Positions 2,620-33,131 of a stretch of DNA of 64,000 nucleotides are shown here, piece after piece. The notes under the pieces are model-generated. The model did not search any database. It was not told where the DNA came from and saw only the letters and a list, made by a program, of their open reading frames with translations. The DNA is from Escherichia phage vB-EcoP-XT73. Numbering within the stretch: the first letter of the stretch is position 1; each line of letters opens with the position of its first letter. The stretch is from sequence record OR757436.1. The stretch is one strand, 5' to 3'. The translations under genes and the position numbers were made by a program.

Positions 2620-3258
2620 ATGGCTGAAGTTTATTTTGCAGGAGATGGTCACTTAGGCCATCGAAACATCTGTAGTTTTCGTAAGCAATTTAAAAACATC
2701 GAAGAACATGACAAAGCAATTCTGGCTGCTTTTGACCACGTAACCAAACGTGATAAAGTTTTCTTTACCGGTGATTGGGTGTTTGAAAAGTATGCCCTTG
2801 ACATCATCGCTGAAGTTAGAGGAGAGAAGCATCTGGTCTTAGGAAATCATGACAGATTAGAACTTCTCCCTGATATGATGAAAGTCTTCCGTAGAATCTC
2901 TGGTGACTTTAAATATAAAGAGTTTTGGGTAACTCATATTCCTATTCACTCTGATGAAATGAGAGGAAAGTATAATATCTATGCTCATACTCATAATTCT
3001 ACTATCAGAGATTGGAGATACTTTTGTACTTCTATGGAACAGATTGATTACAGAGCTGTGTCTCTGCAAGAAATTCGTAAAGAGTTCGCTGCAAGAAAAA
3101 GCATTTTAGAAACTACATTATTTCCAGTGGGAGATAAAAGTAGAGAGCAATTGGATGAAATCCGAAAGAAGATTCAATTAGAATCTCAAGCAGAATCTAA
3201 CTTACTTTTTCAGAGAACAGTAGAACAAACTAGTTTTAAAGGTCTTTTAGAATGGTAG
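2620..3258 (+). CDS. calcineurin-like metallophosphoesterase
   Basis: Motifs GDGHLGH, GDW and GNHD in the canonical order; AAGAGG RBS. Confidence 0.75.
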   Translation: MAEVYFAGDGHLGHRNICSFRKQFKNIEEHDKAILAAFDHVTKRDKVFFTGDWVFEKYALDIIAEVRGEKHLVLGNHDRLELLPDMMKVFRRISGDFKYKEFWVTHIPIHSDEMRGKYNIYAHTHNSTIRDWRYFCTSMEQIDYRAVSLQEIRKEFAARKSILETTLFPVGDKSREQLDEIRKKIQLESQAESNLLFQRTVEQTSFKGLLEW

Positions 3259-3591
3259 AAGTTATTGTTTTAAGTTAAGTTTTCTTTTGATTTTAATAGA
3301 GAATCAAAGTCCTAGGAGTCCTCAACCTAAATCAAGGATTTCCTCAATTCTCTATTTTTATCTCGCAGGTGTCTCCTGCCCTTCGGTACTTGCAAGGGTT
3401 ACGATGATTGCCCAATATACAAGCCTGCAATAGCTTTACTAGCTATACAATATATACATTACTAGTGTGTTATATCTACTACCAAAGATACTTATATTAT
3501 ATAGTACCCTTATCGGTATAAGCGTAATGTATACTATACATAACCGCTCAAAGAGAGCAACAATCTTTCAAATTAAATAAGGAAATTAATA

Positions 3592-4338
3592 ATGAGCATG
3601 ATCCCAACTATCGCAACTTCTTCTCGTAAATCCAACTACGATATTATCCCTGATGGTGAATATGAAGCACGTATCGTTCGTGTAGTAGGTTTGGGTGTTC
3701 ACAATCGTGATCCTTGGGTTGACCCGAAGACCAAAGCAGTAACTCCTAAGAATCCAGCTTTCCGTATGGATTTGGCTTTCGAGCTGATTGGTGTTGATGC
3801 TACTGGTAAAGATTCCGATGGTAAGGCATTAGAACCACGTCCTGCTTGCCAGTTCAAGAGTTATGATGTAAACCCACGAGCTAAGAACTCTGGTATTCTT
3901 GATCTCTGCAAGATGATTGACCCAAGCATTCAAGCACTGAAAGGTGATCTGTCTTGGTTTAAGGATGTGTTGTTAGGTCAGCCTGTTAACATTCTGGTTA
4001 ACTCCTACACTAACAAAGCTGGTGAAGTTAAAAACTCCATCAAGACCATTTCTCCAATCCCAACCAAATATCGTGCAGCAGTTGGTGAAGCTCGCAGTCC
4101 TCTGGTATTCTTCGAACCGTATGCGGAAACCGATGAGAACGTAGCATCCTATCAACTGATGTTCCCGTTCCAGCGCAACCTGCTTACTCAAGCTAATGAC
4201 GCTAAGAACATGCCTCTGGCTGGTCGTGAAATTACTCGTGCTTCTGAAACAGAGCAGAAAGAAGCTACTCCTTCAATCCCTACGATTGATAAAGAGCCTG
4301 CTTCTACTTATGAAGATGACAACGACAGCCCATTCTGA
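3592..4338 (+). CDS. putative single-stranded DNA-binding protein (T7 gp2.5-like)
   Basis: Acidic C-terminal tail ending in Phe (EDDNDSPF); strong RBS; sits in the replication block and is followed by a strong terminator. Confidence 0.5.
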   Translation: MSMIPTIATSSRKSNYDIIPDGEYEARIVRVVGLGVHNRDPWVDPKTKAVTPKNPAFRMDLAFELIGVDATGKDSDGKALEPRPACQFKSYDVNPRAKNSGILDLCKMIDPSIQALKGDLSWFKDVLLGQPVNILVNSYTNKAGEVKNSIKTISPIPTKYRAAVGEARSPLVFFEPYAETDENVASYQLMFPFQRNLLTQANDAKNMPLAGREITRASETEQKEATPSIPTIDKEPASTYEDDNDSPF

Positions 4339-4395: not shown

Positions 4396-4746
4396 ATGCA
4401 AAGCACTTTAAGTGATAATCTAGGATTTGTTATCTTCTCTGCTCTGGTGTTCTTTGGTGGTATGAAGTTTAATGAGTACAGAACAGACAGTAACAATCTG
4501 GATAAAGAAAAGCATCAACAAGAGTTAGAGATTGAAAGAAGTAAGGCAGCTGATGAAGTTGCTCAGAGAGTTCTTACCGGTTTATCCAACTGGAAGAAGA
4601 ACACGGAAACCGTTTATAAAGAGATGCATTATGAGAAAACTAAACCAGTTTTTTATAATGTCTGCGCTAGTGATGACTACATCCGCATGTTCAACGAGCG
4701 ACAGCAGCAGGCAATCGATGCCCTTACCAACAAACCTAAAAGCTGA
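4396..4746 (+). CDS. putative i-spanin (Rz-like)
   Basis: N-terminal transmembrane segment followed by a charged coiled-coil-type region; a lipoprotein ORF is embedded in another frame. Confidence 0.5.
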   Translation: MQSTLSDNLGFVIFSALVFFGGMKFNEYRTDSNNLDKEKHQQELEIERSKAADEVAQRVLTGLSNWKKNTETVYKEMHYEKTKPVFYNVCASDDYIRMFNERQQQAIDALTNKPKS

Positions 4747-4890
4747 ATGTAGGGTTGACCTGCCTCTTTTAGAGAGTGCTCAAGGAAAGGCACTAGCCAC
4801 TACGTTGGAGTGGTATCAGGACCAGTACACAGAATGTGCTGCTAATCACAATGGATTGTTAGAAGCTCTGAAAGAGCGTGGAGTAGAGTG

Positions 4891-4891
<1 letters not shown>
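4631..4891 (+). CDS. putative o-spanin (Rz1-like lipoprotein)
   Basis: Starts inside the Rz-like gene in another frame; signal peptide ending in lipobox-like TSAC; Pro-rich mature part. Confidence 0.5.
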
Positions 4892-6264
<1,373 letters not shown>

Positions 6265-24027: not shown

Positions 24028-27000
24028 TCATATCAATCCATAGATGATGTTGTGAAGAACACACCCCCCAACTGCGCCACCTATGTTGAAATTAATTTCA
24101 GCCTTACTGGACCCTGGAGGAACTGAATCAATAACAGCATAGAAACTGAACGAGTTGTTACTAGGTATGTAATATCCAATAGACTCAGAAACTGCATTAC
24201 CTGCTGAATCTAGAAACCTAATAGATGCTAGTGTAGTGGTTGTATTCTTAGCCCAAAAACCAAACTGAAAGTATCTTCCGGGATGACACTCACTCACTGA
24301 TTGGGTGAAGTTTGCCGAGCTAGTCGTATCTGGGACACCAAAAGAGAATGATGTGTTAAACATAGGAGACGAACTCGGAACATCATTGGGTTGAGAAACT
24401 GACACTACCCCTGATCCTGTTTGACTAAATGTCCAGTTAGATGTATTTAAGAATTGCCCGGAACCATTACTAAGACTATTAATGTAAGGGCTTACAATAG
24501 ATCCAAGATCCCACCTACTTAAGACAAAACCAGCTCTAGGGTAACATCCGTTAGACACAACTCTCTTACTATCACCGCCGATGAGTTGGCGAGTAGGGAA
24601 ACCAGTGGCTAGAGTATTGTTGCCATACAGAGGTAGAGAGCAGTTTGTCAGAGAAACAAAACCATCCCCATTACTTACTATAGGGACAGAACTAAAACCT
24701 ACAGGGACCAAAATTGTCGAATCTTTTATGCTCAATCTCGAACTACCATTAACAGAAAAAGAAACAAAAGACTGATCCGGTTGATACTCAATGTTCCCAT
24801 TAGAAAAAACAACTGTGGCGTTGTCTGTCATTATAATGGTTGGGTCAAAATATCCAGACTTTTTCCCAGCAGGAAGTGAACACGTATCAAAGATGAATTG
24901 TCCATTCTCAAAAGTAAAAGGTCCTCCGTTATCCACGCACCAGCAGTGATTGAACTTTATAACTTCTCCAGAGTTCGCTCTTGATTTAAAAACAACCGTG
25001 TCCGTAAAGCTTCTACTTATTGCACATTTGTCAAAAAGGATCCTATATGAATTATCAAGGAATTCAAGACCAGCTGTTGAGATAAAACCACAATTTTCTA
25101 TCCGAACTTCCGACACCTCCCCACTATCAGTCCCTCCAATTACAACCTTTCTGGCACCTAGACCAACAAAGGACACTCCTGATATCTTAGCTGTTGAAGA
25201 AATCGAATCTCTAAGCCCATAATCTGTGTTTGAATTTATAATCTTCAAGAAATATTGACCTGTTGCTCCAGCCCCTTCCTGAAGCTTACAATTATTATAG
25301 CCTATCAAGGCTCCTTTAGAAACGTCAATAGCTATCTCAGATAATACGGATCCAGAAGTTGGAACTATACAATCGTAACCAGAGGAGTTCACTTTGTTGA
25401 TATAAACAGCAATATCCCCGCTGCCAGTGTAGCCTGCATCAAACACAGAAGCTTCTCCAGAGAATAGCAACCTCTTCCATTTTACAGAAACTCCACTGAA
25501 AACCACCACCCCATCAGCTGTTTCTGAATTGTCTATTGCTACAAACACACCCCCTCCCATATTAGCCCCTTCGACATAAGATCTTACAAAGACTTTGTCG
25601 CCTACAGAAGCTCCCTCTAAGGTCTGAAGTTGTTCAATAGAGGGGAGATCTCCAATAAGATTAAACCCTGTAGGCAGGCCTAGTTCTTGAGAGACCACAT
25701 TAGATACCTGACCTAATGCCACTGCTTCGTCACTCTCAACGGCGTTTGGTATACGTATAGGTTGAGAAAAAGTTACCTTATTTGTCATCGAAGTAATATC
25801 TGAGTTAGCCCCACTCTTAGCCGCAACCAGTGCGAGCCTTGCCGTGTCCGGAGAAGAGGCTCCTGTACCACCTTTCGAAATAGGAACAATATTTTCTACA
25901 GAAACATCACCTAATCCTAAATTAGATCTAGCAATAGTAGTATTAATTGCTCCTGTACCACCTTTCGAAATAGGAACAATATTTTCTACAGAAACATCAC
26001 CTAATCCTAAATTAGATCTAGCAATAGTAGTATTAATTGCTCCTGTACCACCTTTCGAAATAGGAACAATATTTTCTACAGAAACATCACCTAATCCTAA
26101 ATTAGATCTAGCAATAGTAGTATTAATTGCTCCTGTACCACCTTTCGAAATAGGAACAATATTTTCTACAGAAACATCACCTAATCCTAAATTAGATCTA
26201 GACCCCTCTGCCGTGGAAGAACCCGTACCTCCTTGGAGCAGAGAGAGAGGTGTGGTTAGGCCTGAGAGGGAGGTAATATCTGAGTTAGAGCCACTCTTAG
26301 CTGCACCGGTAATCTGCTCAACAGTATAGTCTCCGGCCTGCGGTGATACAACACCTGTCCGTGAGTTAAAACTGGAAACCACCTGTAAAGAAACTTCTCC
26401 TGTTTGAGCAACACCCCCATTAAGAGATACTGACCGAACAGAGGGGATTAGATTAGCAATGTCAACCATTGAGGTTCTATACAGCCCACCAGAGTCCTTA
26501 TCTACGAAAAAACCATAATCATCCGACACAGGAATACCAACAGGAGTTTCCCCAATGTCTGAAATTGTACCATCTGTTCCGTCACGACCCGGCTTCCCTT
26601 CTGGAATACCAAAAGAGAATACACCAGTTGTATTGTCATAGGAACCCGTTGCCAAACTACCTGGGGGTAGTAGCGTCGTCTGTACCGTCATATTAGAAAT
26701 AATATCAAGCTGTTCTAGGACTTGCTGCGTTGCTTCTCTTGAAAGATCTGTAGCTGCATTTGTATTGTCAATAGCCTGTCCCGTAGACTGAATAAGACCT
26801 AGAAGAGTCTGATTCTGTGCTTCAAAGTCTTCTTTAAGTTGCTTAATGTCAGACTCTAGCAGGAACCCTTGAGCGTATAGACGTTCTACCTCAGCAAGAA
26901 TCTCATCTACTGAAGAATATTTAGTCTGGGATAACAGCGCCCAATATTTAGCATCAGCTGCATACTCAGCCGCTGATTTATAAGCACCAATTGATCCTTC

Positions 27001-27063
27001 TGTAGCACCAAATTGGCCTACATTATTCACCGCTGTAGGTGCTGAATTGTTGTAACTGATCAT
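24028..27063 (-). CDS. tailspike / tail fiber with collagen-like motif, 30-aa tandem repeats and beta-helix-like C-terminal domain (possible depolymerase)
   Basis: EGKPGRDGTDG; four copies of SNLGLGDVSVENIVPISKGGTGAINTTIAR; C-terminal half has Asn/Cys-rich repeats suggestive of a parallel beta-helix. Confidence 0.7.
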   Translation of the reverse strand: MISYNNSAPTAVNNVGQFGATEGSIGAYKSAAEYAADAKYWALLSQTKYSSVDEILAEVERLYAQGFLLESDIKQLKEDFEAQNQTLLGLIQSTGQAIDNTNAATDLSREATQQVLEQLDIISNMTVQTTLLPPGSLATGSYDNTTGVFSFGIPEGKPGRDGTDGTISDIGETPVGIPVSDDYGFFVDKDSGGLYRTSMVDIANLIPSVRSVSLNGGVAQTGEVSLQVVSSFNSRTGVVSPQAGDYTVEQITGAAKSGSNSDITSLSGLTTPLSLLQGGTGSSTAEGSRSNLGLGDVSVENIVPISKGGTGAINTTIARSNLGLGDVSVENIVPISKGGTGAINTTIARSNLGLGDVSVENIVPISKGGTGAINTTIARSNLGLGDVSVENIVPISKGGTGASSPDTARLALVAAKSGANSDITSMTNKVTFSQPIRIPNAVESDEAVALGQVSNVVSQELGLPTGFNLIGDLPSIEQLQTLEGASVGDKVFVRSYVEGANMGGGVFVAIDNSETADGVVVFSGVSVKWKRLLFSGEASVFDAGYTGSGDIAVYINKVNSSGYDCIVPTSGSVLSEIAIDVSKGALIGYNNCKLQEGAGATGQYFLKIINSNTDYGLRDSISSTAKISGVSFVGLGARKVVIGGTDSGEVSEVRIENCGFISTAGLEFLDNSYRILFDKCAISRSFTDTVVFKSRANSGEVIKFNHCWCVDNGGPFTFENGQFIFDTCSLPAGKKSGYFDPTIIMTDNATVVFSNGNIEYQPDQSFVSFSVNGSSRLSIKDSTILVPVGFSSVPIVSNGDGFVSLTNCSLPLYGNNTLATGFPTRQLIGGDSKRVVSNGCYPRAGFVLSRWDLGSIVSPYINSLSNGSGQFLNTSNWTFSQTGSGVVSVSQPNDVPSSSPMFNTSFSFGVPDTTSSANFTQSVSECHPGRYFQFGFWAKNTTTTLASIRFLDSAGNAVSESIGYYIPSNNSFSFYAVIDSVPPGSSKAEINFNIGGAVGGCVLHNIIYGLI
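25861..26201. repeat. perfect 90-bp tandem repeat, about 3.8 copies, inside the tailspike gene
   Basis: Unit TCCTGTACCACC...TATTAATTGC repeats identically at 25861, 25951, 26041 and partially at 26131. Confidence 0.9.
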
Positions 27064-27072
27064 ATTATCTCC

Positions 27073-27825
27073 TTATACACGAGAAGTACGAATACCATAA
27101 ATATCAGGCAAGCTGCTCTGAAGCCGAGTCATGTTATTCGGAATTGCGATAGGTGAACCTGAGTACTCTTGTTTCTTATTCTGCTCTACCATTTCATCAA
27201 GGATAGCTTTTCCTAATGCTGACCATTTCTGAACTCCGTTGTCATCTTGAACAAACAAGCAAGCATGACGTAGAGTAAAGTACAGAAGAAGTTCTGGTGC
27301 GATAGTAAGAATAGCACTAGTGTCTGTGTCTTCATGGAATTCCGGTGGGTCTGCATAATAACTAAGAATTACTGAGTTTTCTGCTGGAATCAAAGGACTT
27401 CCATCATCAGGGTAATACGGAGTGTCTGCTTCGATGCTAGGATAGAAAATGAAACGACTACCGAAACGAGCAAAGTTAACAGGTTGATTGTTCCAATGAG
27501 ATGGGTTAATTGTTCCATGCTGTCTACGATAGCTAATCTCTTCAGGAGATGTTACTTGGAAGATTGTACCATCTTTGGCTCTCATCATCCATTGAGCTTC
27601 TAAGTAATCAGGAGGAATGTAAGCTACTCCATCTTTAATATCTAAATACACTTCTTTTTCCAGAGGAGGGATACGTAAATTACGATAAATCTCTTTCTCT
27701 GCAAAGTTAATAAAGTTTGGAATTTGATTAACAAATTCGTCATCGTCCCTATCTGCCCAGAGGGCCACGGCCTTCTTTAGCCACCCATAGGTATTGATGG
27801 GGTATTGAACATCTGGCATTGCCAT
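27073..27825 (-). CDS. structural protein (possible head-tail adaptor)
   Basis: Strong RBS; lies between the capsid and tail genes. Confidence 0.45.
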   Translation of the reverse strand: MAMPDVQYPINTYGWLKKAVALWADRDDDEFVNQIPNFINFAEKEIYRNLRIPPLEKEVYLDIKDGVAYIPPDYLEAQWMMRAKDGTIFQVTSPEEISYRRQHGTINPSHWNNQPVNFARFGSRFIFYPSIEADTPYYPDDGSPLIPAENSVILSYYADPPEFHEDTDTSAILTIAPELLLYFTLRHACLFVQDDNGVQKWSALGKAILDEMVEQNKKQEYSGSPIAIPNNMTRLQSSLPDIYGIRTSRV

Positions 27826-27892
27826 AGGTTGTCCTCCTTGTTATATGTAGACAAAGAATATACATTACACACTAGCTTGTATAGGTCTTAAA

Positions 27893-27921
27893 ACGAAAAA
27901 ACCCCGCCCGAAGGCAGGGTC
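27893..27921 (-). terminator. intrinsic terminator downstream of the capsid region
   Basis: On the - strand: ACCCTGCC-TTCG-GGCGGGGT then TTTTTTCGTTTT. Confidence 0.55.
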
Positions 27922-27926
27922 TAATT

Positions 27927-28468
27927 TTAAGCAGCAGGTGTTACACCTGTGAATTCACAAGTGGCTGTTACAAGAGGTTTAGTCTCGTGTGTAGCTGTAA
28001 CAGAGACTGCACCCGTAGCAGTATCAGCAAGAGTCAAAAGACCAGCTGCACTAACAGTGCCCGCTTCCGGAGGAGTTACCTCAAAAGTATAGTCACTTCC
28101 GGTAGAGTTTGTTGCTGTAAACATAGTAGAGAATGCGGTTGTTGATCCACCCACCTTCCCTGAAATCGGACCTCGGCTAACAAGGGTAGGTTCAGGGTCA
28201 GCAATAGCTGAGATCGTAGATGTACCGGATTTACCACCTTTAGTAGCTTTCACTGTAATCGGGGTTTCTTGCGACGCACTCGGTGCAGTATACAGTCCAG
28301 AAACAGAAATAGCCCCACCACCCTCAACGGACCAAACAAATCCAGTTGTTGATGTGGAGCTATCACTCATTTGTGCTGTAGCTGTAAACTGCTGAGTAGC
28401 CCCCGTCGGAAGGCTTGCAACCGACGAAGGACTAACAGTTATGGTATCTACTGTTACGCCGCCACTGC
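27927..28468 (-). CDS. Ig-like (Big_2) domain ORF in the -1 frame of the capsid gene; likely a C-terminal capsid extension rather than an independent gene
   Basis: Frame is open from inside the capsid gene; the Ig-like sequence (TVDTITVSPSSVASLPTGATQQFTATAQ...) begins upstream of the annotated ATG; no SD before ATG 28370. Confidence 0.5.
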
Positions 28469-29515
28469 CTTTCCCGCAGCAGTGAACAGAACACCGGAAG
28501 CATACGGGTTGCGGTGACGCAGACCAACTTCCATCTCAATCATCCATTTTTCGTAAGAACCATCTTTAGCCAGTTCAGTACGTTTCGGAGCACGCAGAAC
28601 CATCTGAGTCCAGTCAGCGCTACGGAAGAAGTAAACTGCATCGGTAGGCATCCAACGGTTAACGATGATTTTGTAGCTCTGGCCCAGCGGGTCAGTGATG
28701 CTGTTAACTTCGTAAATGAACTGCTTGGTGTTTTCAAAGATACGCTTACGTGAACCCTGAGTATTTTCTTGCAGACCAGCGAAGATCTTAGCATGAGCCG
28801 GGTTAATCATGATGATATCTGCTTCAGAACCAGCGGTGTACAGTTGCAGAGTCATATCAAAGATATCTGCTTCATCAAAGCCGATGTTAGTAGCCGGGTT
28901 AGAAGCGTTCTGTGCAACTTTAACAGTGATTGCACCAGTATCCGGGTCAGCAGGACCATTCTTGGTCTTGTCAACAACGCCGCCAGCCAGACCACCGTGA
29001 GCACACAGGAACTGGAATGCACCAGTCTTACGAGCTGCATGGGTGTCGTTCTTGCCAATCTGATCTGGGTCAGCGGCAGAGTTAGTCAGGTATTGGTCAG
29101 CCAGAACGTCGGTACGAGCCTGACCAGACAGAAGGATTTTCTCGAGGTCACGCTTGATCTCTTTACCTTTCTTCTCCAGCTGGTACATCAGTTCGCGACC
29201 ACGACCGTAGTTAGCGGTGGTGTTAGCAGTGTCAGAAACACGAACAACCTTACGCAGAATCTGAGTAACGTTAGACTTGATAACAGTCGGTTTCATTTCG
29301 CCGTCTTCAGCACGAGAGCCTTCGACGTGTGCGTTATTACCATCAACGCTTGCCAGTGCATCGGTCTGCCAGCTAAAGATAGTCTGGTTGATAGACTCTT
29401 TACCGGTCATGGATACGAACGGGGTATCCTGAGGGGACAGAACAGAAATCCAGTTAGCAAAAGAAAGTTTTTTACCATTCTGGTCATACGATACAAATAA
29501 AGTTGGATTAGCCAT
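28454..29515 (-). CDS. major capsid protein
   Basis: 353 aa directly downstream of the scaffold-like gene; strong RBS; followed by terminator; codon usage typical of a highly expressed gene. Family not confirmed by search. Confidence 0.65.
   Translation of the reverse strand: MANPTLFVSYDQNGKKLSFANWISVLSPQDTPFVSMTGKESINQTIFSWQTDALASVDGNNAHVEGSRAEDGEMKPTVIKSNVTQILRKVVRVSDTANTTANYGRGRELMYQLEKKGKEIKRDLEKILLSGQARTDVLADQYLTNSAADPDQIGKNDTHAARKTGAFQFLCAHGGLAGGVVDKTKNGPADPDTGAITVKVAQNASNPATNIGFDEADIFDMTLQLYTAGSEADIIMINPAHAKIFAGLQENTQGSRKRIFENTKQFIYEVNSITDPLGQSYKIIVNRWMPTDAVYFFRSADWTQMVLRAPKRTELAKDGSYEKWMIEMEVGLRHRNPYASGVLFTAAGKAVAA
28469..28475 (-). other. candidate -1 programmed ribosomal frameshift site (G GGA AAG)
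   Basis: X XXY YYZ heptamer five codons before the capsid stop; the -1 frame continues without stops into the Ig-like domain. Confidence 0.45.
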
Positions 29516-29556
29516 GTTATGTTAGCTCCTATACTATTAAATAATTAATTTGTCGA

Positions 29557-30642
29557 TTAATCTACGAGGAATTTGAATGCGTCTTCGTGACTAACGCGAC
29601 CCTCTGCGAATGCCTTGGCAACCTTAGCGTTGTCTGGCTTATTGGAAGTACGAGACTTTGCAGCATCAGACTTCACAACCTTGCGTGGAGCACCGGGACG
29701 TTTAATCTTAGCCATCACCTGCTGCTTACCTTTATCAAATTGGTATGCTTTATGGAGAGCTAGGAAAATAGACGGACGGTTTTCCTTCAATACTTCTTCT
29801 TCAGTAGCACCTAAGTCAATTGCATATTGCATTAAGTTTTGATATAAGTTTTCATCCCAATTTGGAATCTCACGTTTCAGAATATTAACGCACTCAATAC
29901 TTTTGGCTTGGAAAGCTTCCTGTTCTTTAGCTGCTGCTTCCTGCTTAACACGCATCTGAGCCTGTTCAAGCTGGTTACGACGAGCTGTGTACTTCTCTAG
30001 GAAACGTTTGTTTTCAACATATGCTTGAGGATCTTCTACTGCAAGCTTGTCCCAATCAAATCCGTTGTAATCTTCAATTACTCGGTCTGCTTCTAAAGAC
30101 GCTAATTCTAATACATCCTTCAAACCTACTACACGTTCCTCAAATGCTTCCATGTGACGCTGAAGAGTTGATTCTCGTTCGGTCATGTCAGCACCAGTAA
30201 GATAGCCATTGGAGAGTTCTTCAATAGTCATCTCACGTCCATCAGGAAGGGTGATAACGGTTTCGTAGTCTACATCAAAGACCTCACCATCACCGTCAGC
30301 AGAATCATCTTCATACCCTGCATCGCTTGAGTCTTCCTCTTCTGCTTCAGTGTTTTCATCACCTTCATCAGAGTCATCCCCATCTTCTTCGACTTCGCCT
30401 TCCTCATCATGATCTTCCCAACCATCTTCATCTTCGAACTTAAGCTCATCGCTTTCACCGAGAAGGTCGGTATCAAAGTCGAAATTGTCACCGATATCTT
30501 CCGGGAACTCATCGTCAATGTCCACTTCTGGTTCTTGTTCAGATTCTAATCGACCAAGTTCTTCTTTAAAAGAACCTTTCAGGTCATCCAGTTGGAGGAA
30601 AGATTTAAAATCGTTCGGGTCAATATAATTATCTTGTGGCAT
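29557..30642 (-). CDS. putative scaffolding protein
   Basis: Highly acidic N-terminal half and charged helical C-terminal half; between portal and capsid genes. Confidence 0.5.
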   Translation of the reverse strand: MPQDNYIDPNDFKSFLQLDDLKGSFKEELGRLESEQEPEVDIDDEFPEDIGDNFDFDTDLLGESDELKFEDEDGWEDHDEEGEVEEDGDDSDEGDENTEAEEEDSSDAGYEDDSADGDGEVFDVDYETVITLPDGREMTIEELSNGYLTGADMTERESTLQRHMEAFEERVVGLKDVLELASLEADRVIEDYNGFDWDKLAVEDPQAYVENKRFLEKYTARRNQLEQAQMRVKQEAAAKEQEAFQAKSIECVNILKREIPNWDENLYQNLMQYAIDLGATEEEVLKENRPSIFLALHKAYQFDKGKQQVMAKIKRPGAPRKVVKSDAAKSRTSNKPDNAKVAKAFAEGRVSHEDAFKFLVD

Positions 30643-30887: not shown

Positions 30888-33131
30888 TTACTTTTTACTT
30901 CCAAGACGTTTGCCTGGAATCCGTGAATCTTTGAGAGAAGCTTGTTGCTCTTTCTTAGTTACATTTGCTTCTTTCTTCTGGAGTTCCAAAGTTTTATCCT
31001 GAACACGAGATTGCTGAACAATCTTCTCTTGGTCAACCTGATGTTCCATAACCATCTGCAATTCTTTCAGTACAGACTCATACTGACGGACCTGCTGTTG
31101 CATAAGAGCTAACTTGTGCTTAGCTTGTTCCAGAGTTGCATTGTTATCTTCTTTACGGTTTTCCAGAGTCATAGCATCTGCTGCATTTTCTTGCTTGAAC
31201 TGCAACTCTTCCTGACGCAGACTTAATTCATCCGCAGCTTTCTGCTGTTCGAATGTAGTACGTTCACGCTGGTCGAATGCATCAGCAATCATCTTCTGAG
31301 AAGAAGCCTGTACGTTCTCAACCTGTGCTTTAGTCATCTCGAGCTGGAGGATTTCCATCGGAGACGGCTCAGGAGGCTGATACTGTTCCAGAGGCAGTAG
31401 GTATTTGTGAGTGTCTTTAATACCCATCAACTCAAAGATCTGTGCAGTCATGTAACGGTCTTGCTCCAAACCGAAGAGAGGTGCTAACTGTGCATCTGCT
31501 GCAATCAGCTGCTTCAAGCTAATCAGTTTCTGTGCACGTTCTGCTTTTTCATTAGGAGAGATAGCTACAACAACTTGAAGATTGTGACGAGCTGGTAATT
31601 GTTTCGGATTTACCTGAACCATACCACGAGGGGTTTGTACCTCAATAGGAACTTCACCATTTTCTCTGATAAGGCTATAAATACCACGCATCAATTCAAC
31701 CATACCATTGTGAGCAATGTTACGACATACCATACGGAGACGGTTCTGTGCAGCATTCATCATCAAGCCTACGGTTGCATAAGCGTTATCGTTCTTAAAC
31801 ACATCAGGGTTGATACCCATGCCAAGTTTAGTTACACCAGTACGTGTCTCTTTAAGCTCCTCAGACATACCTAGGAGGCCATCAATACCTTGAGGTAGGT
31901 TATGGTATGGGAACAGGTCGATAGCGTCCTGACGTTCCATTTCAACCACTCCACCGGGACGGTTATCAAGCAGAGAGCGACGATCGTATGCACCAACAAG
32001 AGCTTTGTATCGACCATAGTTAGCATTGTTGACGTTATCAATATAACCACGAACTAACGCGGTACGTAAATCCTGAATATCTTTCGTAATGTCATAGACT
32101 GACTGACCATAGAAGGAACCCGGAATCGGATACGGACAGAAGGTTACAAACGGAATGTGAGTTACTTCTTCAGTGTGAAGGATATGCTCACCAGCTTGAA
32201 TAACCTGATAGAGTTTAGATTCTTTATTCTTATCTAGAACACCAGTACGGATGTAGTGCTCATAAACCCAAACCATAGTAGCGATATCTTCAGTATCTGT
32301 GCCAATGTCAGCATCAATGTCCTGACGCCAGTCAGTACGAGACCAAGCAACTGTAGATTGAGTGGTATCCATCGTGTCTGTCCAGTCATTAAATGCTTCA
32401 ATCTCATCTTTAGGGAAGCCCATAGCAACCAGATCTTCTTTAGAACGACGTACACGATGACAGAAATATTGTGCATCTGCAAAAGAGGTAGCATGTTCAT
32501 CAACAAAGATTTGCTCTGAAGGAACATATTCAACTTTCACACGTTTAACAGTTTGTTCATAAGTAACTTTAACATCTACTGTACCGTCTTCATTTTCTTC
32601 AGTGAAGATTTCCAGATTCTTGAGTCCACCAGCTTCTAATCCCTGAACATATGCAGCCAACGCTTCCGGTGGTACACCTTCAGCTTCTTCAGTTTGAGTA
32701 GAAGTGTGCTCATCCCAATAATACTTGATAAAAGAGTTACGAGTAACTAGACATTCTTGTGCAGCAGAGGAGATAATATTGTATCCCGGATTGTCACGCA
32801 GAAGAATTTGGTTAACTAGTTTAGTTGCTACATCAGCAGCATCAGAGTCCTGTTGGTTATCAGCTACAAAAGTAACTGCTTCATCACCAGAACAGAATAC
32901 GTTAATAATATCTTGCAATGTACCGTTAACGGATTCCCAAACAGTACGATCTACCCAACTAGAGCTGCCAGCAGTTACTGGTGCAGGTAAGTTACCATAG
33001 AAATATTCCCAAGCTTCACGAGCATAGCCCTTAACAGCCATGTCAACGTAACCTTGAGCGTAATTAAAACGACGTTGAAGGTCAACACGTAACTCGTCCA
33101 ACACCTCTTCACTATATTTTTGCTTAGCCAT
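30888..33131 (-). CDS. putative portal protein
   Basis: 747 aa between terminase and scaffold genes; strong RBS; C-terminal charged helical tail. Confidence 0.6.
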   Translation of the reverse strand: MAKQKYSEEVLDELRVDLQRRFNYAQGYVDMAVKGYAREAWEYFYGNLPAPVTAGSSSWVDRTVWESVNGTLQDIINVFCSGDEAVTFVADNQQDSDAADVATKLVNQILLRDNPGYNIISSAAQECLVTRNSFIKYYWDEHTSTQTEEAEGVPPEALAAYVQGLEAGGLKNLEIFTEENEDGTVDVKVTYEQTVKRVKVEYVPSEQIFVDEHATSFADAQYFCHRVRRSKEDLVAMGFPKDEIEAFNDWTDTMDTTQSTVAWSRTDWRQDIDADIGTDTEDIATMVWVYEHYIRTGVLDKNKESKLYQVIQAGEHILHTEEVTHIPFVTFCPYPIPGSFYGQSVYDITKDIQDLRTALVRGYIDNVNNANYGRYKALVGAYDRRSLLDNRPGGVVEMERQDAIDLFPYHNLPQGIDGLLGMSEELKETRTGVTKLGMGINPDVFKNDNAYATVGLMMNAAQNRLRMVCRNIAHNGMVELMRGIYSLIRENGEVPIEVQTPRGMVQVNPKQLPARHNLQVVVAISPNEKAERAQKLISLKQLIAADAQLAPLFGLEQDRYMTAQIFELMGIKDTHKYLLPLEQYQPPEPSPMEILQLEMTKAQVENVQASSQKMIADAFDQRERTTFEQQKAADELSLRQEELQFKQENAADAMTLENRKEDNNATLEQAKHKLALMQQQVRQYESVLKELQMVMEHQVDQEKIVQQSRVQDKTLELQKKEANVTKKEQQASLKDSRIPGKRLGSKK

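What the first reader, a model, noticed from the sequence alone, without database searches (positions are those of the whole stretch)
27927..28475. Predicted -1 programmed frameshift fusing an Ig-like domain to the major capsid protein
The ORF after the capsid gene has no Shine-Dalgarno, and its Ig-like (Big_2-type) sequence begins upstream of its annotated ATG, in the -1 frame of the capsid gene. The slippery heptamer G GGA AAG (28469-28475, - strand) sits five codons before the capsid stop, and the -1 frame is stop-free from there into the Ig-like ORF. Slippage would give a roughly 529-aa capsid-Ig fusion at sub-stoichiometric level, as known for T7 gene 10A/10B and other Ig-decorated phage structural proteins.
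Basis: partly seen in the sequence, partly recalled or inferred. Interest (0 to 1): 0.75.

Follow-up and report, generated by a model that had tools for sequence, protein, structure and literature searches.

The report
Known capsid–Ig frameshift in a Kuravirus
The window is a phiEco32-like (Kuravirus) E. coli phage, and the predicted -1 ribosomal frameshift that adds Ig-like domains to a minority of major capsid proteins is really there, but it was first described for this phage group in 2008.

Summary
GGGAAAG lies at 28475..28469 (- strand) in the register G_GGA_AAG, with four sense codons between it and the stop of the 353-aa major capsid gene. The -1 frame is open from there for 180 codons, giving a 529-aa, 56.0-kDa fusion.

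Pfam places a Big_2 domain at fusion residues 356-428. That is 27 residues upstream of the annotated Met (residue 383). No ATG, GTG or TTG lies in that stretch, and the ATG has no Shine-Dalgarno sequence (rank 50 of 52 ORFs).

Of 47 in-register X_XXY_YYZ heptamers in the window, only this one opens a long -1 ORF (180 codons; the next longest is 30). The heptamer is invariant in all Gordonclarkvirinae loci examined and in Privateervirus at 56% capsid identity. Variable columns cluster at third codon positions of the -1 frame.

- GenBank record MN045231 (phage Paul) annotates the joined CDS and cites phiEco32 (PMID 18294652).
- The SU10 (2014), Privateer (2021) and YF01 (2023) papers describe the same site, two of them with mass-spectrometry support.

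This phage is an unannotated instance. No canonical stimulatory structure lies 5-9 nt downstream. A hairpin at +45 nt shows weak covariation.

The parts
28454..29515 (-). Major capsid protein gene (0 frame), 353 aa, HK97 fold, SU10_MCP family
   Evidence: ORF. Pfam PF17236 SU10_MCP, E 1.5e-76. It aligns over residues 1-351 with the SU10 major head protein of PDB 7z45, E 2.9e-231.
28469..28475 (-). Slippery heptamer G_GGA_AAG (P site GGA to GGG, A site AAG to AAA)
   Evidence: It is the only in-register GGGAAAG in the window. It is invariant in all 17 Gordonclarkvirinae entries (window included) and both Privateervirus loci, and in 10 metagenomic contigs.
28454..28456 (-). 0-frame stop TAA of the short capsid form, four sense codons after AAG
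27927..28469 (-). -1 frame extension: 180 codons plus stop, translated only after the shift. It includes the annotated 147-aa 'Ig domain containing protein' ORF 27927..28370.
   Evidence: Variable alignment columns by -1 frame codon position are 8/5/20.
28371..28468 (-). Gly-rich linker (GSGG) and the first 27 residues of the Big_2 domain, upstream of the annotated ATG, with no ATG/GTG/TTG in frame
28233..28451 (-). Ig-like domain 1 (Big_2, fusion residues 356-428)
   Evidence: above the gathering cutoff. It aligns weakly to the C-terminal region of the phi29 capsid protein, 6qvk residues 343-418, E 1e-3.
27981..28151 (-). Second, divergent Ig-like domain (fusion residues about 456-512), the unit that is multiplied in the longer extensions of relatives
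   Evidence: Sub-threshold Big_2 match, E 0.012. The repeated motif 'GKxGGxxxxFxxMFTxxNS...VKATHKTQ' occurs several times in Paul, Bas86 and EP335. The single-sequence AlphaFold model is all-beta but low confidence.
27889..27922 (-). Intrinsic terminator closing the capsid/Ig transcription unit
   Evidence: 10-bp stem, 6 G-C pairs, T-run. No terminator lies between the capsid stop and the Ig ORF. The equivalent position carries a terminator annotation in SU10 and Paul.
28400..28430 (-). Conserved hairpin (10 bp, -15.7 kcal/mol) starting 38 nt after the end of the heptamer; possible modulator, function unproven
   Evidence: One pair occurs as GC, UA and AU and another as GC and UG among relatives.
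28462..28482 (-). Stem CUGCUGC/GCAGUGG with the heptamer as its loop (-8.3 kcal/mol); proposed for SU10 in the literature
   Evidence: 7/7 pairs in most relatives; SU10 paper. It cannot be folded while the ribosome decodes the site (inference).

Best explanation
The window is a Kuravirus (phiEco32-like, prolate-headed podophage of E. coli). Its major capsid gene is decoded in two ways.

- Most ribosomes read GCG GGA AAG GCA GTG GCG GCG TAA and release the 353-aa, 38.8-kDa capsid protein.
- A minority slip back one base on G_GGA_AAG: the P-site tRNA-Gly re-pairs with GGG and the A-site tRNA-Lys with AAA.
- Those ribosomes continue in the -1 frame through a GSGG linker, a Big_2 Ig-like domain and a second Ig-like domain. 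They stop at 27927-27929 and give a 529-aa, 56-kDa capsid-Ig fusion.
- The fusion co-assembles into the HK97-fold shell in sub-stoichiometric amounts and displays the Ig domains on the outside.

Shown here: the site, its register, the open frame, the domain boundary, the absence of an independent start, and conservation. Taken from the literature on close relatives: both protein forms occur in virions. Inferred: the shift efficiency (a few percent, by analogy with the identical heptamer in lambda G/GT, which would mean some tens of copies among the 715 capsid subunits reported for SU10) and the function of the Ig domains (weak adhesion to cell-surface or environmental glycans).
For: - Heptamer in register, and a 180-codon -1 ORF unique among 47 in-register slippery sites.
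- Big_2 spans fusion residues 356-428, while the annotated Met is residue 383. The ORF alone fails the Pfam cutoff.
- There is no start codon in the 99 nt upstream of the ATG, and the ATG has no SD (rank 50 of 52).
- The ATG is not conserved: phiEco32, SU7, ECBP2 and E20-1 have AAA or CTA at that position.
- GGGAAAG and the open -1 frame are conserved in all 17 Gordonclarkvirinae entries (window included) except the SU10 record, and in Privateervirus at 56% capsid identity with a different (I-set) Ig domain.
- Variable columns fall 8/5/20 by -1 frame codon position.
- One terminator lies after the Ig ORF and none before it.
- Literature and annotation:
  - The Paul CDS is joined 'at GGGAAAG', citing phiEco32 PMID 18294652.
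  - YF01 has a joined CDS and a group-wide description.
  - SU10 proteomics found 38.5 and 55.4 kDa forms.
  - Privateer LC-MS/MS detected the longer form.
Against: - There are no protein data for this particular phage.
- No stable structure begins 5-9 nt after the heptamer. The 106-nt downstream fold is not exceptional (z = -1.55).
- The SU10 cryo-EM study saw no Ig density, and the YF01 authors state that study showed no larger band on SDS-PAGE. This is explained at least partly by a 1-nt insertion in the SU10 record that stops the -1 frame after 11 codons. It also shows the extension is dispensable in the laboratory.
- I could not read the primary phiEco32 paper. That evidence is second-hand, through GenBank and citing papers.
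Confidence: 0.9

Rival explanations
1. The Ig-like protein is made only as an independent 147-aa product initiated at ATG 28370 (as annotated in XT18 and NJ01) and binds the capsid non-covalently as a decoration protein. The heptamer would be incidental.
For: GenBank records of the closest relatives annotate it as a separate CDS. The SU10 cryo-EM authors considered a loosely bound minor capsid protein.
Against: - The product would lack the first 27 residues of the Big_2 domain.
- The ATG has no SD.
- The ATG is absent in phiEco32, SU7, ECBP2, SU10 and E20-1.
- The stretch upstream of the ATG evolves as coding sequence in the -1 frame.
- A 55.4-kDa capsid form was reported by mass spectrometry for SU10.
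Confidence: 0.04
2. The arrangement is a decayed in-frame capsid-Ig fusion, or a sequencing or assembly frameshift error. There is no programmed recoding, and the Ig region is untranslated or a pseudogene.
For: The SU10 record shows that 1-nt indels do occur here. In-frame capsid-Ig fusions exist elsewhere: phi29 gp8, and the second capsid paralogue of SeKF_80 and A24.
Against: - The same frame relationship, the same heptamer and a nearby 0-frame stop appear in more than 25 independently sequenced genomes and contigs.
- The Ig region shows third-position-biased variation and modular expansion, so it is under selection.
- The SU10 capsid structure is built from the short form.
Confidence: 0.03
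3. The shifted product arises from transcriptional slippage by RNA polymerase rather than from ribosomal slippage.
For: Both mechanisms would give the same protein. Nothing computed here distinguishes mRNA-level from ribosome-level shifting directly.
Against: From established knowledge, transcriptional slippage needs homopolymer runs of about 7 or more A or T. Here the longest runs are G3 and A3. G_GGA_AAG is a well-characterised ribosomal -1 site, the same heptamer as in lambda G/GT as cited.
Confidence: 0.02

Closest known systems
phiEco32 gp11 / gp11-12 and the same cassette in other Kuravirus-like phages (SU10, Paul, YF01)
   Same: Same capsid family: 92-100% amino-acid identity across the Gordonclarkvirinae loci. 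Same heptamer GGGAAAG 3-4 codons before the stop, same Gly-rich linker, same first Big_2 domain, and the same gene order: scaffold, capsid, Ig, terminator, adaptor.
   Different: Only the details of the extension differ. The window has two Ig-like domains (180 aa), like NJ01 and XT18. phiEco32 has 178 aa, and Paul and YF01 have 543-545 aa with about six domains. The window genome as a whole is not identical to any record (best 98.2% identity over 73% of 24 kb).
Proteus phage Privateer / Privateervirus capsid frameshift
   Same: SU10_MCP-type capsid (56% identity), the identical heptamer GGGAAAG, a -1 extension made of Ig domains, and the longer form detected in virions by LC-MS/MS.
   Different: In the Privateervirus loci examined (P59, vB_CsaP_009) the heptamer abuts the stop codon (GGGAAAG TAA). 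The first domain there is I-set rather than Big_2.
T7/T3 gene 10A/10B
   Same: A -1 ribosomal frameshift near the 3' end of the major capsid gene of a podophage gives a C-terminally extended minor capsid form, at about 10% as cited.
   Different: The capsid sequence family is different. From my own knowledge, not tested here, the T7 site is G_GUU_UUC, the extension is about 50 aa, and it depends on a distant 3' element.
Lambda G/GT tail assembly chaperone frameshift
   Same: The identical heptamer G_GGA_AAG with -1 slippage at a few percent (about 3.5% as cited). From my own knowledge, it works without a required downstream structure.
   Different: The proteins are tail chaperones, not capsid proteins. 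The shifted product acts in assembly and is not a virion decoration.
phi29 gp8 (prolate-head capsid protein with C-terminal BIG2 domain)
   Same: An HK97-fold capsid protein of a prolate podophage carrying a C-terminal Ig-like domain. Fusion residues 351-426 align to gp8 residues 343-418, E 1e-3.
   Different: In phi29 the domain is in frame and present on every subunit, with no recoding.

Membership tests
-1 programmed ribosomal frameshift cassette | Slippery heptamer X_XXY_YYZ in the 0-frame register | tested here: met
   G_GGA_AAG at 28475..28469, register verified.
-1 programmed ribosomal frameshift cassette | The -1 frame is open from the site and encodes a meaningful polypeptide that cannot be started independently | tested here: met
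   180 codons; the Big_2 domain starts 6 residues after the shift; no ATG/GTG/TTG before 28370; no SD.
-1 programmed ribosomal frameshift cassette | Site and frame relationship conserved among relatives, with coding-type substitution in the -1 frame | tested here: met
   The heptamer is invariant in all 19 entries (window, 16 Gordonclarkvirinae loci, 2 Privateervirus loci) and in 10 metagenome contigs. Variable columns are 8/5/20 by codon position.
-1 programmed ribosomal frameshift cassette | Stimulatory element: a downstream hairpin or pseudoknot 5-9 nt away, or an upstream SD-like sequence | tested here: inconclusive
   Nothing stable lies at 5-9 nt. A weak invariant 6-bp stem lies at +12 and a 10-bp stem at +38 with two covarying pairs. 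The overall fold has z = -1.55. A stimulator is not obligatory for this heptamer (lambda G/GT, own knowledge).
-1 programmed ribosomal frameshift cassette | Both protein products are made | not testable with these tools
   Literature on relatives only: SU10 38.5 and 55.4 kDa, Privateer, and phiEco32 through the GenBank note and citing papers.
Kuravirus-type capsid/capsid-Ig pair (phiEco32 gp11/12) | Capsid protein of the SU10_MCP family, next to the scaffold gene and followed by the Ig ORF, a terminator and the adaptor gene | tested here: met
   PF17236, E 1.5e-76. The matching region is 100% identical to XT18 and 92.6% identical (81% covered) to phiEco32. Gene order matches the annotated relatives.
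Kuravirus-type capsid/capsid-Ig pair (phiEco32 gp11/12) | GGGAAAG 3-4 codons before the capsid stop, followed in the -1 frame by G(S/G)GGVTVD and a Big_2 domain | tested here: met
T7 gene 10A/10B | Homologous capsid gene and the T7-type shift site | not tested
   No T7 sequence was compared here. The resemblance is functional only and comes from the literature cited. The window is not filed as a member.

The most novel reading that the evidence does not exclude
The 10-bp hairpin at 28430..28400, 38 nt past the heptamer, is kept by compensatory changes: a Ser third-position G/A/U is matched to the second base of a variable Pro/Leu/Gln/Glu codon. It could be a long-range modulator that sets the ratio of plain to Ig-bearing capsid subunits. 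That would be an unusually distant stimulator or attenuator for a bacterial -1 frameshift. Alternatively, the pairing may be a by-product of coding constraints.
Probability: 0.12. Interest if true: 0.4.

Novelty: already known. Interest (0 to 1): 0.15.

Why it matters
This matters mainly for annotation. The closest GenBank records (XT18, XT32, NJ01 and many others) still list a truncated 'Ig domain containing protein' instead of a joined capsid CDS, so the minor capsid isoform is missed in proteome predictions for therapeutic E. coli phages.

Biologically, the cassette is a clean example of frameshifting used to set the stoichiometry of a surface-displayed, rapidly diversifying Ig array on a prolate capsid. 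That principle is already published for this phage group.

Tried and rejected
1. The primary phiEco32 paper (PMID 18294652, and a guessed PMC id) is not held. I relied on the GenBank note in phage Paul and on three citing papers.
2. A single-sequence AlphaFold2 model of the 182-residue peptide starting at Gly-Lys of the heptamer had mean pLDDT 41.7. It is all-beta but unusable, so no fold search was run.
3. A metagenome scan with TTCACYGCTGCGGGAAAGG gave 52 hits. Only 10 were Kuravirus-like, and all carried hairpin haplotypes already seen, so the covariation test gained no power.
4. The bare count of GGGAAAG in the window is not above chance (9 against 7.1 expected). Significance comes from register and context, not from the motif count.
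5. The hairpin with the heptamer in its loop, proposed for SU10, does pair in most relatives. I reject it as a stimulator because its 5' arm is inside the ribosome when the site is decoded (inference). Its arms are Ala (GCN) and Gly (GGN) codons, which pair almost automatically.
6. Transcriptional slippage and a sequencing error were considered and rejected (see rival explanations).

Full report
**What the window is.** The region 27900-29560 (- strand) is 100% identical to Escherichia phage vB-EcoP-XT18. It is 92-98% identical to other Kuraviruses, the phiEco32-like prolate podophages of the Gordonclarkvirinae. Over 24 kb no record matches fully; the best is 98.2% identity over 73%. The window is therefore a distinct mosaic member of the genus. 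Gene order on the - strand is portal (30888-33131), a small ORF, scaffold (29557-30642), major capsid (28454-29515), the Ig ORF (27927-28370), a terminator, the adaptor-like 250-aa protein (27073-27825) and the tail fibre.

**Checking the observation.**
- The reverse complement of 28469-28475 is GGGAAAG, and the capsid frame reads GCG GGA AAG GCA GVG... precisely GCG GGA AAG GCA GTG GCG GCG TAA. The heptamer is therefore in the X_XXY_YYZ register, with four sense codons before the stop.
- The -1 frame has a stop 60 nt upstream of the heptamer. It is then open through the heptamer for 180 further codons, to TAA at 27927-27929.
- The fusion is 349 + 180 = 529 aa and 55.98 kDa, against 38.8 kDa for the 353-aa form.
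- Pfam finds SU10_MCP at residues 12-344 (E 1.5e-76) and Big_2 at 356-428 (profile 2-70 of 79, above the gathering cutoff). The annotated Met is residue 383, and the ORF on its own fails the Big_2 cutoff.
- No ATG, GTG or TTG lies in the -1 frame upstream of 28370.
- The ATG has the third-weakest anti-SD complementarity of 52 ORFs: +1.2 kcal/mol against a median of -6.5.

**Is it more than chance?** The motif count alone is not significant: 9 copies against 7.1 expected. Context is. Among 47 in-register X_XXY_YYZ heptamers in 52 putative genes, this is the only GGGAAAG. It is also the only site whose -1 frame runs on for more than 30 codons; it runs for 180, of which 175 lie beyond the 0-frame stop.

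**Conservation.**
- GGGAAAG is invariant and in register in all 17 Gordonclarkvirinae entries (the window plus 16 fetched loci from Kuravirus, Suseptimavirus and Nieuwekanaalvirus), in 10 metagenomic contigs, and in Privateervirus at 56% capsid identity.
- The -1 extension is open everywhere except in the SU10 record. A 1-nt insertion there ends the -1 frame after 11 codons, as the YF01 authors also noted.
- Between the heptamer and the ATG, variable alignment columns fall 8, 5 and 20 at -1 frame codon positions 1, 2 and 3. That is the signature of translation in that frame.
- The ATG at 28370 is not conserved. phiEco32, SU7, ECBP2 and SU10 have AAA there, and E20-1 has CTA.
- Extension length varies from 178 to 545 aa through multiplication of the second Ig-like unit.

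**RNA structure.**
- No stable element starts 5-9 nt after the heptamer.
- An invariant but weak 6-bp stem (UAACAG/CUGUUA, -5.1 kcal/mol) starts at +12 in the window and at +9 in phiEco32.
- A 10-bp hairpin (28430..28400, -15.7 kcal/mol) starts 38 nt after the end of the heptamer.
- On 11 distinct relatives the second hairpin keeps 92% of its cells paired. One pair occurs as GC, UA and AU, and another as GC and UG.
- Only four haplotypes exist even after a metagenome scan, so this evidence is weak.
- The whole 106-nt fold is unremarkable (z = -1.55).
- The stem with the heptamer in its loop, proposed for SU10, pairs in most relatives. It cannot exist while the ribosome sits on the site (inference).
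- Lack of a canonical stimulator does not argue against frameshifting. The same heptamer works in lambda G/GT at about 3.5% (cited) and, from my own knowledge, needs no such structure.

**Mechanism.**
- Shown: an efficient E. coli slippery site in register, an Ig domain that is only complete through the shift, no independent initiation signal, conservation, and one transcription unit closed by a terminator at 27922-27899.
- From the literature on close relatives: both capsid forms occur in virions. SU10 proteomics found 38.5 and 55.4 kDa forms, Privateer LC-MS/MS detected the longer form, and phiEco32 is cited in the GenBank note of phage Paul and in the Privateer paper.
- Inferred: an efficiency of a few percent, which would put tens of Ig-bearing subunits among the 715 capsid proteins of a Tend=4, Tmid=20 head (capsid geometry).
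- Also inferred: external display and an adhesive role for the Ig domains. Their function in this group is explicitly called unclear.

**Counter-evidence.**
- The SU10 cryo-EM study saw no Ig density, and the YF01 authors report that it showed no larger band on SDS-PAGE. The indel in the SU10 genome explains this.
- That result conflicts with the 2014 SU10 mass-spectrometry report, a discrepancy already discussed.
- It also shows the extension is not essential for making infectious particles.

**Comparison with what is known.** This is the phiEco32-type capsid frameshift.
- YF01 has a joined CDS, and its paper describes the event for 'YF01 and other group phages', with isoforms of about 500-550 aa.
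- It works like T7/T3 gene 10A/10B and uses the lambda G/GT heptamer.
- The product resembles phi29 gp8, which carries an in-frame C-terminal BIG2 domain.
- The records closest to the window (XT18, XT32, NJ01) do not annotate the fusion.

**Verdict.** Interest is low. The only open point is whether the +38 hairpin modulates the shift.

Noticed in passing
L010-L012 near 4400-4440 (IMG/VR contigs of 82-90 kb); L013 and L019 (Aeromonas phage LAh_9) near 3400-3430 in L019: These capsid homologues (58-65% identity) end CTG AAG GTA AAG GCG/CCC TAA. A Big_2 or I-set Ig domain follows directly in the open -1 frame, but no X_XXY_YYZ heptamer is in register. The conserved G_GUA_AAG may be a non-canonical shift site (tRNA-Val GUA to GGU as at T7 G_GUU_UUC, from my own knowledge; tRNA-Lys AAG to AAA). 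In L010-L012 a GC-rich hairpin (GCGCCCCUACGGGCG) starts about 5 nt after it. LAh_9 annotates only a truncated 75-aa 'tail protein' there.
   Followed up: partly
L020 (Salmonella phage SeKF_80) 1484-2422 and 2501-4270; L021 (Cronobacter phage A24) 2492-3430 and 3511-4596; L014: These relatives have no frameshift cassette. They carry two tandem capsid paralogues instead: a short one ending at a terminator-like hairpin, and a second one with an in-frame C-terminal extension. Gene duplication seems to replace recoding as the way to make plain and decorated capsid subunits.
   Followed up: partly
L022 (Escherichia phage PJNS034) near 3370-3400; L015 near 4415-4431: Other heptamers occur at the same place in more distant capsid homologues. 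PJNS034 (42% identity) has C_CCA_AAA, followed by I-set Ig domains in the -1 frame. L015 has A_AAA_AAG with only a 42-aa, non-Ig extension.
   Followed up: partly
L023 (SU10, KM044272) about 3420-3430; alignment A1 column 36: The SU10 record has a single-base insertion 28 nt after the heptamer. It terminates the -1 frame after 11 codons and puts the Ig domain in the 0 frame behind two stop codons. A metagenomic contig with the same linker (L063) lacks the insertion.
   Followed up: yes
window 25859-26201 (- strand gene 24028-27063): The 1011-aa tail-fibre gene contains 3.8 perfectly identical 90-nt tandem repeats, encoding ENIVPISKGGTGAINTTIARSNLGLGDVSV. This suggests very recent expansion or ongoing length variation of the fibre shaft.
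   Followed up: no
window 27826-27926 compared with L004 (XT18) 3236-3748 and L025 (Bas86) 4524-5036: XT18 and Bas86 carry an HNH endonuclease gene between the Ig ORF and the adaptor-like gene. The window, phiEco32 and NJ01 lack it, so this is a mobile insertion next to the cassette.
   Followed up: no
window 27927-28469 compared with L001, L025-L031: The extension is a modular array. The first Big_2 domain is conserved, and the second unit (motif GKxGGxxxxFxxMFTxxNS...VKATHKTQ) is present once in the window and up to about five times in Paul and YF01. Some phages add a distinct C-terminal domain ending RTYxVKSGA.
   Followed up: partly
window 47781-47855 (+): A single tRNA-Arg(TCT) gene lies here.
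   Followed up: no
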